Shown: piece after piece, positions 4,382 to 7,963 of the stretch
Numbering within the stretch: the stretch's first letter is position 1
Layout: each line of letters opens with the position of its first letter
IMG/VR virus record: IMGVR_UViG_3300020465_001196
Origin: a virus
Taxonomy: Duplodnaviria; Caudoviricetes
Length of the DNA: 64,000 nt
Direction: 5' to 3' (one strand)
Notes under the pieces: generated by a model
Told to the model about the DNA's origin: nothing
Database searches by the model: none
The model's input: only the letters and a program-made list of their open reading frames with translations
Made by a program: the position numbers and the translations under genes

Positions 4382-4714
4382 TTATTCAAAAATGCCAAGC
4401 ACTAATTTGGCATCTTCACTCATCATTTCTGGACCAAAAGGTGGATCAAAAGTAGTTGTAATTTCACAACTTTCTACACCTTCTACTGATTCAGTCGCTG
4501 AACGTATGTCGGCCACAATTTGATCTGCGGCTGGACAAAATGCTGAAGTTAACGTATGTGTAACGTGAGCTTTAGGAAGCTCTTCTAAATCTATTCTATA
4601 TATTAATCCTAAATCATAAATGTTAACCGATATTTCTGGATCGTAAACTTCTTTTAAGTTTTTAACTATTTGATCAAATACTGCTAGTTTTGTTTTATCT
4701 AATTCTTCGCTCAT
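4382..4714 (-). CDS. DUF59 / SufT-like Fe-S cluster assembly protein
   Basis: LKEVYDPEISVNIYDLGLIY, TLTSAFCPAA, FDPPF; likely start MSEELD at 4714 after AAGGA. Confidence 0.88.
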   Translation of the reverse strand: MSEELDKTKLAVFDQIVKNLKEVYDPEISVNIYDLGLIYRIDLEELPKAHVTHTLTSAFCPAADQIVADIRSATESVEGVESCEITTTFDPPFGPEMMSEDAKLVLGIFE

Positions 4715-4715
4715 T

Positions 4716-5687
4716 TTATTCCTTAGGTAATTTAGCTTCAAATTCTCTTAAACGTTTGTAAACACTTGCCAGTTCTATGATAGTAGGCCATGCTTTTAAT
4801 AGATATTGCATTGAGCCTTCAACTCTTCCAAATGCTCTAATAATTTGTTGCATAACCCCAAGTGTTACTACACCTGCTACAATGGCTGGTGCTAAAAATA
4901 CATAAGCACTTAATACGTTTGCTTGTAAGTATGCCATACGTCCTACATTAAAATACAAATAACGCACATAACTTAAAAAGTGAATACTACGAACATCATC
5001 AAATAATTCATCAATTCTTTTTGGTCTTACATTACCATCATCTTCTGCAATAACTAATATTTTTCTATAGGCCGCTTCTTTCTTTTGTAAGTCATATTCT
5101 ACACCTACTAGTCTAAGTATCCATCCTAATCCTATTAAGAATGCAGTACCACCAAGTGTCCAAAGTAAAGCACCAGTAATTAAACCATATTGCCAATCTC
5201 CAAAAAAGAATATTGGTATACCAATTGATAATCCAAGTAGTATAGGAACAAATTGTACTAGTACCATTATTGACTCGATAAAACTTGTACCTAAGCCTTC
5301 CATAATTCTTGTAAACTTAATTGTGTCTTCTTGTACCCTTTGTGATGCACCTTCTATATTTCTTGCTTTATCATAAACTGAATGATACCATTCAACCATT
5401 GCTGTACGCCATCTAAATAAAAAGTGTGCTGTAAAAAAACTAATTGCAACATATAACGCAATATAAATTCCTGCTAGTGTTATAAACGAAAGCAAACTTG
5501 CAAAGTATTCTTGTAGTGTAATTGCATTTGGTGTAGCAAGTGCTTTTTGAATCATATCATAAAATACACCAAACCATTCATTTATTTTAACATCAATTTT
5601 TACTTGTACCCAAAGTGATCCTAAAATAATTGCTGAACCTAGCCAGGCCCATAGTAACCATTTTCTAGTGGTAAAAAATCTAAACAT
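4716..5687 (-). CDS. sbmA: SbmA/BacA-family peptide transporter
   Basis: INEWFGVFYDMIQKAL, FLFRWRTAM, IEGASQRVQEDT, YQKKEAAYRKILV-like segment, multiple TM helices. Confidence 0.85.
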   Translation of the reverse strand: MFRFFTTRKWLLWAWLGSAIILGSLWVQVKIDVKINEWFGVFYDMIQKALATPNAITLQEYFASLLSFITLAGIYIALYVAISFFTAHFLFRWRTAMVEWYHSVYDKARNIEGASQRVQEDTIKFTRIMEGLGTSFIESIMVLVQFVPILLGLSIGIPIFFFGDWQYGLITGALLWTLGGTAFLIGLGWILRLVGVEYDLQKKEAAYRKILVIAEDDGNVRPKRIDELFDDVRSIHFLSYVRYLYFNVGRMAYLQANVLSAYVFLAPAIVAGVVTLGVMQQIIRAFGRVEGSMQYLLKAWPTIIELASVYKRLREFEAKLPKE

Positions 5688-5702: not shown

Positions 5703-6020
5703 TTATTCTTTTTCAACTGTACAATTAAGCGGATGTCCTTGCGACCTTGCTTTTGCTGTAGTTTCAATTGCTTTTTGTTCTGCTATTTCAAATACATAAG
5801 TTCCGGCAACACCTTTGCCTTCTTCGTGAATTTTTAACATGACAGCTTCAGCTTGTTCTTTTGTTTTTCTAAAAATATCCATCAATACTTCTGTTACAAA
5901 GTCCATAGGTGTATAATCATCATTTAACAAAATAACATTATACTTACTAGGCTCATCTAATTCTGTACTAGTTGTTGTTTGTATATTTGCTGTTGCGTTT
6001 GCATTACCTTGTTCTGTCAT
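5703..6020 (-). CDS. clpS: ATP-dependent Clp protease adaptor (N-degron recognin)
   Basis: YNVILLNDDYTPMDFVTEVL, MLKIHEEGKGVAGTYVFEIAEQK, HPLNCTVE. Confidence 0.95.
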   Translation of the reverse strand: MTEQGNANATANIQTTTSTELDEPSKYNVILLNDDYTPMDFVTEVLMDIFRKTKEQAEAVMLKIHEEGKGVAGTYVFEIAEQKAIETTAKARSQGHPLNCTVEKE

Positions 6021-6029
6021 TTTAATCCT

Positions 6030-6596
6030 TTAATTTACATTTTTTTCAATTAGTACTGTATCTGGTAAAATGTACGGTACAAATTCTTGTCTATCTTCAC
6101 GATCATTACCTTGATGTGCTTGACCTCTTTCACCTTCATCTTTTGGTGCAAGAGTTATTGGAAAAGGTTGTCCTTTTCTTTGCTCATCTATTCTTTGTAA
6201 TTCTTCATGCATTTGTCTATTGTATTGTATAGTATAAACACGCGGTTGTCTACCATTAAATAGATCACTTAACTTATCTACCCAAGTTAAATTCTCTACA
6301 TTGGCCTCTCTAATAATTAACCATAGATAAATTGCTCCTGGATCACCACTTTTAATATTTGGTTCTTTAACGTGTTGGCCTATTAAAAAATATTTTTCAT
6401 GATTTGGATATGAATCATATGGATACCCATACATTGTTTTTAATCCAATCCAAGAACTTAAGATTGCTAATACAACTAATAAAGTCATTATTGCTTTCAT
6501 TCCCCATCTACTTCCAGATGAAGATATAAACGTCCATAGTACTGTTGCTCCTATAATCATTAAAAGTAGTACTAAAAATATATGTCCTTGTATCAT
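6030..6596 (-). CDS. Two-TM membrane protein, third gene of MotA/MotB-like module
   Basis: Two N-terminal hydrophobic helices then a soluble domain; 3-nt gap to upstream gene. Confidence 0.6.
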   Translation of the reverse strand: MIQGHIFLVLLLMIIGATVLWTFISSSGSRWGMKAIMTLLVVLAILSSWIGLKTMYGYPYDSYPNHEKYFLIGQHVKEPNIKSGDPGAIYLWLIIREANVENLTWVDKLSDLFNGRQPRVYTIQYNRQMHEELQRIDEQRKGQPFPITLAPKDEGERGQAHQGNDREDRQEFVPYILPDTVLIEKNVN

Positions 6597-6599
6597 AAA

Positions 6600-7310
6600 C
6601 TATGGTGCTCCAAAATATTGATTTTGCCCAGCCCCCAGGTTAGATGTTGGATTAATTCCATCATCTGTACCAGTATATGGATTACCTATCATTTGATATG
6701 GTAACTGATTTACATTTGAAACGTTTCCTTCTTCATCTACTGTAAATCTAACTGCTGTAATTTCTTGTCCTTTTTCTGTTAATGTAATTTCTCTAACTGT
6801 TACGATTCCATATGGATTTAATTTTTCTACTGTAATCGTTACAGGTATGTTAGGATAGTATTTACTCTTTCTTTTAACTTGTTTTTCTAATTTTTTATTA
6901 TATAAGTGAATATTAACAATATACTCTCCTGGTATAATTCCTCTAATTGTCATATGTTCTTCATTGTTATATACTTTAATTGGTTTACCATCTGCACCAA
7001 TAACTGTATCGTTTGAACCTCCAAGATCATCTCTATCTAAACTCATAAGCCCAACGTCTTTAGATTTAAATCCAGCAATATTTCCTAATGGATCTCTTAC
7101 CCAAAGATCTACATCATCTTCTGATTTTTTTGGCCATTTTAATGTAATAATAAATTCTGCGTTTAGCTCAACATTAGATTTTTTAGCAATTGGATTTATT
7201 AAAACAAATGCCATAACGAATAAAAATACAAAACCAACTAGTGTATTGAATAATAAATCTATGAAAGCAACTTGTGACCCGTAACTGCGATGGCGTCGTG
7301 ATGTAGACAT
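6600..7310 (-). CDS. MotB/ExbD-like single-TM protein with YfaP/DUF2135-like soluble domain
   Basis: AFIDLLFNTLVGFVFLF TM with Asp at the stator-conserved position; WP..DDVDLWVRDP, LDRDD, PGEYIVNIHLY. Confidence 0.65.
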   Translation of the reverse strand: MSTSRRHRSYGSQVAFIDLLFNTLVGFVFLFVMAFVLINPIAKKSNVELNAEFIITLKWPKKSEDDVDLWVRDPLGNIAGFKSKDVGLMSLDRDDLGGSNDTVIGADGKPIKVYNNEEHMTIRGIIPGEYIVNIHLYNKKLEKQVKRKSKYYPNIPVTITVEKLNPYGIVTVREITLTEKGQEITAVRFTVDEEGNVSNVNQLPYQMIGNPYTGTDDGINPTSNLGAGQNQYFGAP

Positions 7311-7313
7311 TGT

Positions 7314-7886
7314 TTAATCCTTTTGTTTTTCAACAACCTGTTCTATTAGGTTGGATGCTTGTCTTTGTCTATACCTCTCTAAGTCTTGATCTAATCTAAA
7401 ATACTGAAATTTTAATATTGTACTTGTAATTAATCCTGTCAACGTTGTATATAGTGCTGTCGACATACCAACTGCCATTCTTGCTAATGCGGCCTGAACT
7501 GAAGATACGTCAGCAATATTAATTCCGCTGAATGCTCCAGCTAACATTAATATAAATCCAGATACAGTTCCAATTAGACCTAATGTTAATAAAATATCTG
7601 ATGCAAACCAACCTGGTTCATGTCTTGTATCTAAATTATCTAATTTTTTTATATCACCATTTGCAAGTTGACTTAATTTCCAACTTTCATAACCACAATG
7701 AAACGTCATTGCATAAAAAATAGATAGTATAAAAAAAGATAATTTTGTTTTATCGTTTTGCCATAGTAACTCATGTACTTGAAAATTTATTAATAATGCT
7801 GTTGCGGCAAATAATAAACAAAAAAACCACCACCATTTTAAAAAAATTCCGTGTTTTTTTATTTTAGTTACGTTCATTGTTAACAA
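7314..7886 (-). CDS. MotA/TolQ/ExbB proton-channel family protein
   Basis: LTLGLIGTVSGF...GMSTALYTTLTGL signature, four TM helices. Confidence 0.85.
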   Translation of the reverse strand: MLTMNVTKIKKHGIFLKWWWFFCLLFAATALLINFQVHELLWQNDKTKLSFFILSIFYAMTFHCGYESWKLSQLANGDIKKLDNLDTRHEPGWFASDILLTLGLIGTVSGFILMLAGAFSGINIADVSSVQAALARMAVGMSTALYTTLTGLITSTILKFQYFRLDQDLERYRQRQASNLIEQVVEKQKD

Positions 7887-7933
7887 GCCCTTCTTGAAAG
7901 TGTTTTATAAAAGTATTTATCGTTATTCAAGAG

Positions 7934-7963
7934 AAACCCCGGAAAAGATAGTCCCGGGGTTTA
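7934..7963 (-). terminator. Hairpin terminator after dnaK
   Basis: AAACCCCGG (7934-7942) / CCGGGGTTT (7955-7963) 9-bp stem just downstream of the dnaK stop. Confidence 0.7.

What the first reader, a model, noticed from the sequence alone, without database searches (positions are those of the whole stretch)
6030..7886. Three-gene MotA/MotB-like ion-motor module with a YfaP-like instead of OmpA-like periplasmic domain
Seen: a MotA/ExbB-family 4-TM gene, then a single-TM gene with the stator Asp (FIDLLF) fused to a DLW/LDRDD beta domain, then a 2-TM partner. The genes are 3 nt apart with their own GATAAATA motif at 7914. Established: MotAB, ExbBD, TolQR and ZorAB are 5:2 ion-driven rotary motors, and ZorAB acts in anti-phage defence. 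Inference: a phage-borne motor of unknown output, such as envelope remodelling, superinfection exclusion, energising uptake or lysis timing, or interference with host Tol/Ton/Zorya.
Basis: partly seen in the sequence, partly recalled or inferred. Interest (0 to 1): 0.75.

Follow-up and report, generated by a model that had tools for sequence, protein, structure and literature searches.

The report
Phage-borne three-gene MotA-like membrane motor
A marine jumbo phage carries three tightly packed genes that look like a stripped-down proton-driven membrane motor of the flagellar-stator/Tol/Ton kind with two undescribed partner parts; the same trio is common in phages and in marine and soil Alphaproteobacteria, and I found no published study of it.

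Summary
On the minus strand lie A (7877..7314, 187 aa; Pfam MotA_ExbB 34 bits, cut-off 22.9), B (7310..6600, 236 aa) and C (6596..6030, 188 aa), each 3 nt apart, behind a hairpin and a GATAAATA motif (7921..7914).

B has one N-terminal membrane helix. Its Asp18 is kept in 136 of 137 diverse relatives. It also has a beta-sandwich that folds like TerD (Z 9.4-11.8) and is remotely related to E. coli YfaP/DUF2135 (hhalign 90%, E 1.7e-6). C has two membrane helices, a small alpha/beta domain with no known fold, and a disordered tail.

The trio is not phage-specific:
- 309 IMG/VR viral contigs encode a B relative, and 73 of the 80 loci fetched hold all three genes.
- It occurs in three types of Rhizobium phage.
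- It occurs in chromosomes of SAR116, MarineAlpha6 and soil Alphaproteobacteria (53 of 401 sampled species).
- No neighbouring gene is conserved across lineages.
- All three genes are under purifying selection in phages (dN/dS 0.06-0.35).

Best reading: a self-contained ion-driven 5:2-type motor of cellular origin with a periplasmic output, carried by phages as an auxiliary cassette. The 5:2 assembly could not be tested, and the output is unknown. This scan found the same cassette before on other DNA.

The parts
7934..7961 (-). GC-rich hairpin (CCCCGG..CCGGGG) plus T-run directly after the dnaK stop: terminator-like, separates dnaK from the trio
   Evidence: Read from the sequence. A hairpin also lies in the equivalent place in relatives L085-L087.
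7914..7921 (-). GATAAATA, one mismatch from the T4 late-promoter consensus TATAAATA. It is part of a conserved block TTCTCTTGAA(TA)ACGATAAATA.
   Evidence: The block is conserved in L085, L086 and L087. NATAAATA lies within 130 nt upstream of gene A in 23 of 75 viral loci, against 3.4% of background windows. Promoter function is inferred, not shown.
7314..7877 (-). Gene A: minimal MotA/ExbB/TolQ-superfamily channel subunit, 187 aa. It probably has four TM helices and almost no cytoplasmic domain. Invariant residues include G100, G103, T104, G107, A141, L142, T144, T145 and G148.
   Evidence: Pfam PF01618, 34 bits. The family profile hits PomA, MotA, TolQ and ExbB chains in the PDB. hhalign against E. 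coli TolQ gives prob 70%, E 4e-5, pairing GTV and ALxxT with the TolQ T145 and T178 motifs. Alignments A6 and A8. dN/dS 0.06-0.09.
6600..7310 (-). Gene B: 236 aa with a basic N-terminus, one TM helix, a conserved LINPxAK linker, a beta-sandwich and a disordered tail
   Evidence: No Pfam, NCBIfam or PHROG family. The family counts 2149 clusters at 50% identity. AF2 model pLDDT 75.5. dN/dS 0.17-0.20.
7197..7271 (-). B transmembrane helix (residues about 14-38) with Asp18 (codon 7259..7257)
   Evidence: Asp18 is kept in 136 of 137 diverse representatives. Hydropathy peak at residues 20-38. AF2 helix at 11-38.
6696..7163 (-). B beta-sandwich domain (residues about 50-205): TerD-like fold, remotely YfaP/DUF2135-like, probably periplasmic. 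Invariant W59, D66, D68, D94, G97 and E118.
   Evidence: VIA-align against TerD structures: 3ibz Z 11.8, 2qng 10.5, 2qz7 10.3, 2kxt 9.4; the next non-TerD small domain scores 6.7. Foldseek E 1e-4. hhalign against E. coli YfaP: prob 90%. Conservation counts.
6030..6596 (-). Gene C: 188 aa with two N-terminal TM helices, a G(W/Y)P motif, an alpha/beta domain (about 58-150) and a disordered charged tail ending in a conserved P..LPxK-like motif
   Evidence: Alignments A7 and A10. AF2 pLDDT 74. No family or fold match. It co-occurs with A and B in 73 of 80 viral loci and in the bacterial loci. dN/dS 0.24-0.35.

Best explanation
The three genes encode one self-contained inner-membrane machine of the MotA/ExbB/TolQ '5:2 motor' kind.

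- A, a minimal and probably four-helix subunit without a cytoplasmic domain, would form the pentameric ring.
- The N-terminal helix of B, with its buried Asp18, would sit as a dimer in the ring's pore. It would take up and release protons (or Na+) against the conserved Thr residues of A, so that ion flow turns A relative to B.
- Because A has no cytoplasmic torque domain, the work must be delivered in the periplasm. It could go through B's membrane-proximal TerD/YfaP-like beta-sandwich, whose invariant acidic cluster suggests Ca2+ binding. It could also go through C, a two-helix protein with a periplasmic alpha/beta domain and a long flexible tail with a conserved end, which may play the TolA/TonB-like role.

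The cassette is a cellular system of Alphaproteobacteria and some other bacteria. Phages of these hosts, including this marine jumbo phage, carry their own copy as an auxiliary cassette, here probably transcribed from a late-type promoter.

Shown: family membership of A, conservation of the Asp and Thr residues, the fold of B, gene linkage, distribution and purifying selection.
Inferred: 5:2 stoichiometry, ion drive, topology, Ca2+ binding, the role of C and the benefit to the phage.
For: - A passes the Pfam MotA_ExbB cut-off. Its profile finds PomA, MotA, TolQ and ExbB in the PDB. It aligns to E. coli TolQ TM2-TM3 with the two channel Thr motifs matched and, more weakly, to ExbB.
- B's Asp18 is kept in 136 of 137 relatives. 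Its basic N-terminus and single helix give the N-in, C-out topology of MotB/ExbD/TolR.
- B's domain has a TerD fold at Z 9.4-11.8, well above the next non-TerD small domain. It is related to the secreted E. coli protein YfaP (signal peptide visible).
- The order A-B-C is kept in 73 of 80 viral loci, in Rhizobium phages, and in the bacterial chromosomes examined.
- No neighbour is conserved across lineages.
- The Ca. Levibacter chromosome has the trio in addition to two strong MotA_ExbB-family genes.
- dN/dS is 0.06-0.35 for all three genes between phage relatives.
- A published precedent exists for Asp-bearing 'transpore helices' fused to non-canonical periplasmic domains beside TolQ-like genes (PMC12204202).
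Against: - B shows no significant sequence similarity to TolR, ExbD or MotB. The best local alignments do put Asp18 on MotB D32 and ExbD D25, but at prob 1-5%.
- Pfam, NCBIfam and PADLOC give B and C no family.
- A scores far below the curated cut-offs of TolQ, MotP and ZorA models.
- Neither stoichiometry nor ion flow has been measured, and no structural model of the assembly was obtained.
- B's sandwich follows the membrane helix after only about 12 residues, so unlike MotB or TolR it cannot reach the cell wall by itself.
- Two of A's four presumed helices are only moderately hydrophobic.
Confidence: 0.6

Rival explanations
1. A gated ion channel rather than a motor. A and B form a proton or cation leak, opened by B's beta-sandwich or by C (for instance on a Ca2+ or envelope signal). 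The phage uses it to tune or collapse membrane potential, for example for lysis timing or to stop superinfecting phage DNA entry.
For: - The Asp and Thr residues that define the ion path are conserved.
- A has no cytoplasmic output domain.
- A conserved LINPxAK segment follows B's helix where MotB has its plug; the plug role is an inference.
- A late-type promoter motif lies upstream.
Against: - The same trio is kept as a single chromosomal copy in free-living bacteria with small genomes, which does not fit a lysis or exclusion device.
- Known relatives with this Asp/Thr arrangement are energy transducers, not mere channels (established knowledge of MotAB, ExbBD and TolQR).
- C and the large conserved sandwich would be unexplained.
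Confidence: 0.15
2. An interference device. The phage proteins mix with or block the host's own Tol, Ton, flagellar or Zorya motors as decoy subunits, to exclude other phages or disarm a defence.
For: - A is homologous to TolQ/ExbB and weakly to ZorA models.
- Tol and Ton are known entry routes for phages and colicins (established knowledge; PMC10424213 appears in the list).
Against: - Phages always carry the complete trio, not a single subunit.
- Bacteria keep the trio alongside their own TolQ/ExbB-type genes.
- B and C share no detectable similarity with TolR, ExbD, MotB or TolA.
- Similarity to ZorA is confined to the shared channel helices, at 17-23 bits against cut-offs of 500.
Confidence: 0.07
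3. The three genes are linked only by descent within a block of host-derived 'housekeeping' genes (hsp20, dnaK, clpS, clpP, suf) and have no joint function in the phage.
For: In marine phage relatives the trio sits among Hsp20, DnaK, ClpS, ClpP, NifU and S21 genes. This synteny could be inherited rather than functional.
Against: - The trio itself, without those neighbours, recurs in unrelated Rhizobium phages and in several bacterial lineages with different flanks.
- All three genes are under purifying selection.
- The genes are 3 nt apart or overlap in all lineages.
Confidence: 0.03

Closest known systems
TolQ-TolR-TolA and ExbB-ExbD-TonB (Tol and Ton inner-membrane energisers)
   Same: - Three membrane proteins are encoded in a row.
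- The A subunit is homologous over the two channel helices, with the Thr motifs matched (hhalign to TolQ prob 70%, to ExbB 20%).
- The second protein has one N-terminal helix with a buried Asp.
- There is no cytoplasmic torque domain, so the output is periplasmic.
   Different: - A probably has four helices and only about 25 cytoplasmic loop residues.
- B's periplasmic domain is a TerD/YfaP-like sandwich, not the TolR/ExbD fold, and B has no significant sequence similarity to TolR or ExbD.
- C has two helices, shows no similarity to TolA, and has no TonB-like C-terminal domain.
MotA-MotB / PomA-PomB flagellar stators
   Same: The best PDB sequence hits of the A profile are PomA and MotA (E 1.4e-3 and 2e-3). 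The four-helix topology is shared. B's Asp aligns with MotB D32 in the best, though insignificant, local alignment.
   Different: - A has no cytoplasmic FliG-facing domain.
- B has no OmpA-like peptidoglycan-binding domain.
- There is a third subunit.
- No flagellar genes are nearby.
- hhalign of the A profile against E. coli MotA is insignificant.
TolQ-like pentamers with 'transpore helix'-vWA partners (predicted; Mol Biol Evol 2025, PMC12204202)
   Same: An Asp-bearing helix predicted to sit in a TolQ-like ring is fused directly to a non-canonical periplasmic domain. The function is unknown and the system is known only from genomics and structure prediction.
   Different: The output domain here is a TerD/DUF2135-like sandwich, not vWA. 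A separate 2-TM third protein is always present. The A subunit is much smaller. The cassette is abundant in phages.
ZorA-ZorB (Zorya anti-phage defence)
   Same: It belongs to the same MotA/ExbB superfamily. PADLOC ZorA models hit the A channel helices weakly (E 1e-5 to 1e-3).
   Different: There is no long ZorA cytoplasmic tail, no ZorC/D/E effectors, and no ZorB-type peptidoglycan-binding domain. The scores are far below the NCBIfam ZorA cut-off (17 against 500 bits). The carrier is a phage, not a defence island.
TerD (tellurite-resistance Ca2+-binding protein) and E. coli YfaP (DUF2135)
   Same: B residues about 50-205 superpose on TerD structures at Z 9.4-11.8 over 134-139 residues. They align to YfaP's SW..D.DL..P.G...Y core with hhalign prob 90%. 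The aligned YfaP core keeps the counterparts of D66 and D68 (D.DL).
   Different: - No Pfam TerD or DUF2135 hit.
- Sequence identity to TerD structures is 9-16%.
- TerD proteins are soluble and cytoplasmic, and YfaP is a secreted stand-alone protein, whereas here the domain is tethered to a motor-type helix.
- Ca2+ binding is not tested.

Membership tests
MotA/ExbB/TolQ superfamily (Pfam PF01618), A subunit | Sequence match to the family model above its curated cut-off | tested here: met
   34 bits against a cut-off of 22.9, E 2.8e-8. Homologues in Rhizobium phages and Ca. Levibacter also pass.
MotA/ExbB/TolQ superfamily (Pfam PF01618), A subunit | Conserved Thr/Gly motifs on the last two helices that line the ion path (TolQ T145/T178 equivalents) | tested here: met
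   G100, G103, T104, G107 and A141, L142, T144, T145, G148 are invariant in 29 sequences. hhalign pairs them with TolQ GTVWG and ALIATAIGL, and HMMER with PomA GTLVG and ALLTTLYG.
5:2 ion-driven motors (MotAB, ExbBD, TolQR, ZorAB) | Partner protein with a single N-terminal TM helix carrying a conserved acidic residue | tested here: met
   Asp18 is kept in 136 of 137 representatives. There is a single hydrophobic helix and a basic N-terminus.
5:2 ion-driven motors (MotAB, ExbBD, TolQR, ZorAB) | Pentamer of A around a dimer of B | not testable with these tools
   Seven chains exceed the six-chain limit of complex prediction. No structure of the assembly was obtained.
5:2 ion-driven motors (MotAB, ExbBD, TolQR, ZorAB) | Ion flow dependent on the TM Asp | not testable with these tools
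   Needs membrane-potential or growth assays with a D18N mutant.
MotB / ExbD / TolR families (B subunit) | Detectable homology to MotB, ExbD or TolR | tested here: not met
   No Pfam or NCBIfam hit. hhalign prob is 0.5% (TolR), 1% (ExbD) and 4.7% (MotB).
MotB / ExbD / TolR families (B subunit) | OmpA-like (MotB) or TolR/ExbD-type periplasmic domain | tested here: not met
   The modelled domain is a TerD-like beta-sandwich.
TerD family (Pfam PF02342) | Sequence match to the family; TerD fold | tested here: inconclusive
   No Pfam hit at E up to 10. The fold matches TerD structures at Z 9.4-11.8, rmsd 3.9-5.1 A, 134-139 residues. The model's pLDDT is 75.
DUF2135 / YfaP (Pfam PF09906) | Sequence match to the family | tested here: inconclusive
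   No Pfam hit. A profile of 137 B relatives against E. coli YfaP gives hhalign prob 90%, E 1.7e-6 over 77 columns.
TolA / TonB force transducers (C subunit) | Single N-terminal helix, extended linker, C-terminal globular domain; homology to TolA or TonB | tested here: not met
   C has two helices. hhalign against E. coli TolA gives prob 0.5%. There is no Pfam family. TonB itself was not compared.
Zorya (ZorAB) defence | ZorA with a long tail, ZorB, and effector genes | tested here: not met
   A is 187 aa. NCBIfam ZorA scores 17 bits against a cut-off of 500. PADLOC hits cover the channel helices only. No Zor effectors are in the neighbourhood.

The most novel reading that the evidence does not exclude
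This would be the first virus-encoded 5:2 rotary motor with a new kind of output. A minimal A ring turns a Ca2+-binding TerD-like rotor (B). Together with the tail-hook protein C, it does mechanical work on the host envelope for the phage's benefit, for example blocking entry of competing phages or preparing the envelope for release. The cellular copies would serve an unrecognised envelope function in abundant marine Alphaproteobacteria.
Probability: 0.2. Interest if true: 0.85.

Novelty: new variant of a known kind. Interest (0 to 1): 0.66.

Why it matters
Ion-driven 5:2 motors power flagella, nutrient import, outer-membrane maintenance, gliding and Zorya defence, and each newly understood member has revealed a new way of delivering energy to the envelope. 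This trio is a very common member: 2149 B-protein clusters at 50% identity, 309 IMG/VR viral contigs, and 13% of sampled alphaproteobacterial species.

- It has the smallest A subunit I have seen.
- Its partner domain is TerD/YfaP-like and of unknown role.
- Its third subunit belongs to no known family.
- It is repeatedly carried by phages, from 68-kb Rhizobium phages to jumbo marine phages of about 330 kb.

Cultured Rhizobium phages (P10VF, RHph_N3_13) and their hosts make it directly testable. Solving it would also give a first functional handle on E. coli YfaP/DUF2135.

Tried and rejected
- **Complex prediction (A + B residues 1-208 + C, row-matched alignments):** no verdict (score 0.04, mark 0.32). 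This is neither for nor against binding.
- **5:2 model:** could not be sent, because seven chains exceed the limit of six.
- **Family searches for B and C:** Pfam, NCBIfam, PHROGs and PADLOC gave nothing above noise. A marginal PPC hit (E 0.16) on one Rhizobium-phage B and weak hits to a subtilisin C-terminal domain (E 0.5) were not pursued.
- **Fold searches for C:** Foldseek PDB and VIA-align wide matched only the helical hairpin. The Atlas search returned only unnamed, mostly viral clusters.
- **hhalign:** B against TolR, ExbD and MotB, C against TolA, and A against MotA were all insignificant.
- **The search for related loci with the 137-row alignment:** failed for lack of a conserved stretch. 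It was repeated with A9.
- **Neighbourhood survey:** no partner gene is conserved across bacterial lineages. In marine phages ClpS, Hsp20, ClpP, S21 and NifU recur, but within related phages, so I do not count this as functional linkage.
- **RpoH-type promoter:** one could be read into CTTGAA-N17-TTATAAA, but the downstream half is not conserved in L085 or L087, so I dropped the idea.
- **Tree of B:** phage clades do not nest clearly in any bacterial clade. The base is a polytomy with long branches, so I make no claim about a donor.
- **Metatranscriptome contigs:** pieces of A, B, C and clpS occur at 99% identity or more in three studies. Contigs in RNA libraries do not prove transcription, and parts without cover mean nothing.
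- **Literature searches:** no description of this cassette and nothing on YfaP function. The library is partial.
Full report
**What is in the window**

The window is part of a large, low-GC (about 31%) phage genome. It encodes a large terminase, a DnaB-like helicase, ribonucleotide reductase, an EF-G-like protein and four tRNAs. Nearly all genes lie on the minus strand, and no cellular genome is held for it. A close relative of the locus (85% B identity) lies on a 328-kb IMG/VR viral contig.

The finding covers three minus-strand genes:
- A, listed from TTG 7886. ATG 7877 is more likely the start: it has an AAGAAGGG ribosome-binding site 10 nt upstream and gives the 187 aa of its closest relatives.
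- B, 7310..6600, 236 aa.
- C, 6596..6030, 188 aa.

The gaps are 3 nt each. Upstream, the dnaK stop is followed by a GC hairpin with a T-run (7961..7934) and then by GATAAATA (7921..7914). clpS starts 9 nt after C, followed by an SbmA/BacA gene and a DUF59 gene.

**Gene A**

- A passes the Pfam MotA_ExbB cut-off (34 against 22.9 bits). It falls far below the curated cut-offs for TolQ, MotP and ZorA. PADLOC ZorA models touch only its channel helices.
- A profile of 20 relatives finds PomA, MotA, TolQ and ExbB chains in the PDB (E 1.4e-3 to 0.4).
- hhalign against E. coli TolQ gives 70% probability (E 4e-5) over TolQ TM2-TM3. It pairs A's LGLIGTVSG with TolQ's GLFGTVWG and A's ALYTTLTGL with ALIATAIGL. 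These are the motifs that hold TolQ T145 and T178 (residue numbers from established knowledge). ExbB aligns likewise at 20%, and E. coli MotA does not.
- G100, G103, T104, G107, A141, L142, T144, T145 and G148 are invariant in 29 sequences.
- The protein has two strongly and two moderately hydrophobic segments, with only short loops between them. It therefore lacks the cytoplasmic domain that flagellar stators use to push the rotor.

**Gene B**

- B has a basic N-terminus (RRHR), a single helix (AF2 11-38) containing AFIDLLF, a conserved LINPxAK segment, a beta-sandwich (about 50-205) and a disordered tail.
- In 137 representatives drawn from 2149 clusters at 50% identity, Asp18 is present in 136. 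W59, D66, D68, D94, G97 and E118 are invariant.
- Pfam, NCBIfam and PHROGs give no family.
- The model's sandwich matches TerD structures: Foldseek E 1e-4; VIA-align Z 11.8, 10.5, 10.3 and 9.4 over 134-139 residues. The next non-TerD small domain scores 6.7.
- The B profile against E. coli YfaP (DUF2135) gives hhalign probability 90%, E 1.7e-6, over 77 columns that cover the SW..D.DL..P.G..Y core. With the shallower 20-row profile the probability was 37%.
- 'YfaP-like' is thus a defensible remote homology, and the fold class is TerD-like. YfaP has a signal peptide, which fits a periplasmic location for this domain.
- B is not detectably related to TolR, ExbD or MotB. The best local alignments do place Asp18 on MotB D32 and ExbD D25.

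**Gene C**

C has two N-terminal helices and a conserved G(W/Y)P motif. A small alpha/beta domain follows, then a low-confidence charged tail ending in a conserved P..LPxK-like motif. The positive charges sit in the loop between the helices, which suggests that both ends face the periplasm; this is an inference. No family or fold match was found, and there is no similarity to TolA.

**Distribution**

The trio is a unit.
- It occurs in the same order in three genome types of Rhizobium phage (68, 154-158 and 171 kb).
- It occurs in related marine phage contigs.
- 309 IMG/VR contigs encode a B relative. Of the 80 loci fetched, 73 have all three genes, and five of the remaining seven are cut by a contig end.

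It is also cellular.
- 69 species genomes matched: SAR116 single-cell genomes, the complete Ca. Levibacter chromosome, MarineAlpha6 and Pelagibacteraceae-labelled MAGs, soil Alphaproteobacteria, and single Desulfobacteraceae, Legionellales, Chloroflexota and betaproteobacterial MAGs.
- Where flanks exist, A and C accompany B.
- In Ca. Levibacter the trio sits between a TctABC transporter and ordinary metabolic genes. It is additional to two strong MotA_ExbB-family genes.
- In a sample of 401 alphaproteobacterial species, 53 have a B homologue, in two score tiers.
- No neighbouring gene is shared between bacterial lineages.
- In marine phages the trio sits among Hsp20, DnaK, ClpS, ClpP, NifU and S21 genes. 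These phages are related, so the linkage may be inherited.
- A tree of B does not resolve a bacterial donor.
- Between this phage and three relatives, dN/dS is 0.06-0.09 (A), 0.17-0.20 (B) and 0.24-0.35 (C).

**Expression signals**

The block TTCTCTTGAA(TA)ACGATAAATA is conserved upstream of A in three relatives. NATAAATA occurs within 130 nt upstream of A in 23 of 75 viral loci, against 3.4% of background windows. These loci are not independent. The motif resembles the T4-type late promoter TATAAATA (established knowledge). Pieces of A, B, C and clpS occur at 99% identity or more in marine metatranscriptome assemblies of three studies. This shows presence in RNA libraries, not transcription.

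**Mechanism**

The most economical reading is a 5:2-type ion-driven complex. An A pentamer surrounds a dimer of B helices, with Asp18 cycling against T104/T145. The output is periplasmic, because A has no cytoplasmic domain.

B's sandwich follows the helix after about 12 residues, so it must sit on top of the ring. Its invariant acidic residues and TerD-like fold suggest Ca2+ binding. C could be a peripheral, TolA/TonB-like transducer or a regulator.

A published prediction of Asp-bearing 'transpore helices' fused to vWA domains beside TolQ-like genes is the nearest conceptual precedent (PMC12204202). A survey of MotAB relatives does not mention this family (PMC12505986).

None of the assembly, ion flow, topology, Ca2+ binding or phage benefit is shown. 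The one complex prediction gave no verdict.

**Rivals**

I considered three rivals: a gated leak for membrane-potential control, a decoy for host Tol/Ton/Zorya, and mere inherited linkage. I rank them lower mainly for three reasons. Free-living bacteria keep the complete trio beside their own Tol/Ton genes. Phages always carry all three genes. All three genes are under purifying selection.

**Novelty and verdict**

I found no paper describing the cassette or a function for YfaP; the library is partial. Earlier follow-ups in this scan reached the same reading on other DNA.

- the quantified TerD fold match;
- a positive profile test of the YfaP link;
- the Asp count;
- the TolQ Thr-motif alignment;
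- the selection estimates;
- the phage and bacterial tallies for this marine lineage.

I class it as a new variant of a known kind: the 5:2 motor superfamily with a new partner domain and a new third subunit.

Noticed in passing
window 7914-7961 (minus strand); L085, L086, L087 upstream of gene A: After the dnaK terminator hairpin, the block TTCTCTTGAA(TA)ACGATAAATA is conserved in three relatives although the sequence downstream of it is not. It contains CTTGAA, an RpoH -35-like hexamer, next to the late-promoter-like ATAAATA.
   Followed up: partly
window 4716-5687 (minus strand); L010-L012: A full-length SbmA/BacA peptide-transporter gene (Pfam E 1.6e-132) lies two genes downstream of the trio, in the same order as in related phage contigs. 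It is another proton-driven inner-membrane protein carried by the phage.
   Followed up: no
L040, L041 versus L044: The trio and its flanks are nearly identical in MAGs labelled Cryomorphaceae (Bacteroidota) and Planktomarina (Rhodobacterales) and in the complete Ca. Levibacter chromosome. These are probably mis-binned SAR116-type contigs rather than transfers.
   Followed up: partly
L043, L045-L076 (SAR116 single-cell assemblies): In about 25 independent SAR116 single-cell assemblies the contig ends 50-150 nt upstream of gene A. This is a recurrent assembly break of unknown cause.
   Followed up: no
L007 8094-12597; L004 1-2627; window 4382-4741: suf iron-sulfur assembly genes sit beside the trio both in a marine alphaproteobacterial chromosome (SufBCD-SufS) and in a jumbo-phage contig (SufB-SufC-SufS). 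The window keeps a DUF59/SufT-like gene nearby. This may be a trace of block capture from a host.
   Followed up: no
search of 401 Alphaproteobacteria species: B homologues fall into two score tiers (222-327 bits and 57-125 bits), which points to a second, more distant subfamily in larger genomes that I did not examine.
   Followed up: no
L025-L037 (soil Alphaproteobacteria): In soil alphaproteobacterial loci, gene A's open frame is 244-294 aa with a cytoplasmic TM2-TM3 loop 60-70 residues longer. Two divergently oriented downstream genes (about 460 and 590 aa) are conserved within that group only.
   Followed up: no
window 5855-7888: Marine metatranscriptome assemblies from three studies contain pieces of clpS, C, B and A at 99-100% identity. 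They are present in RNA libraries, but transcription is not proven.
   Followed up: partly
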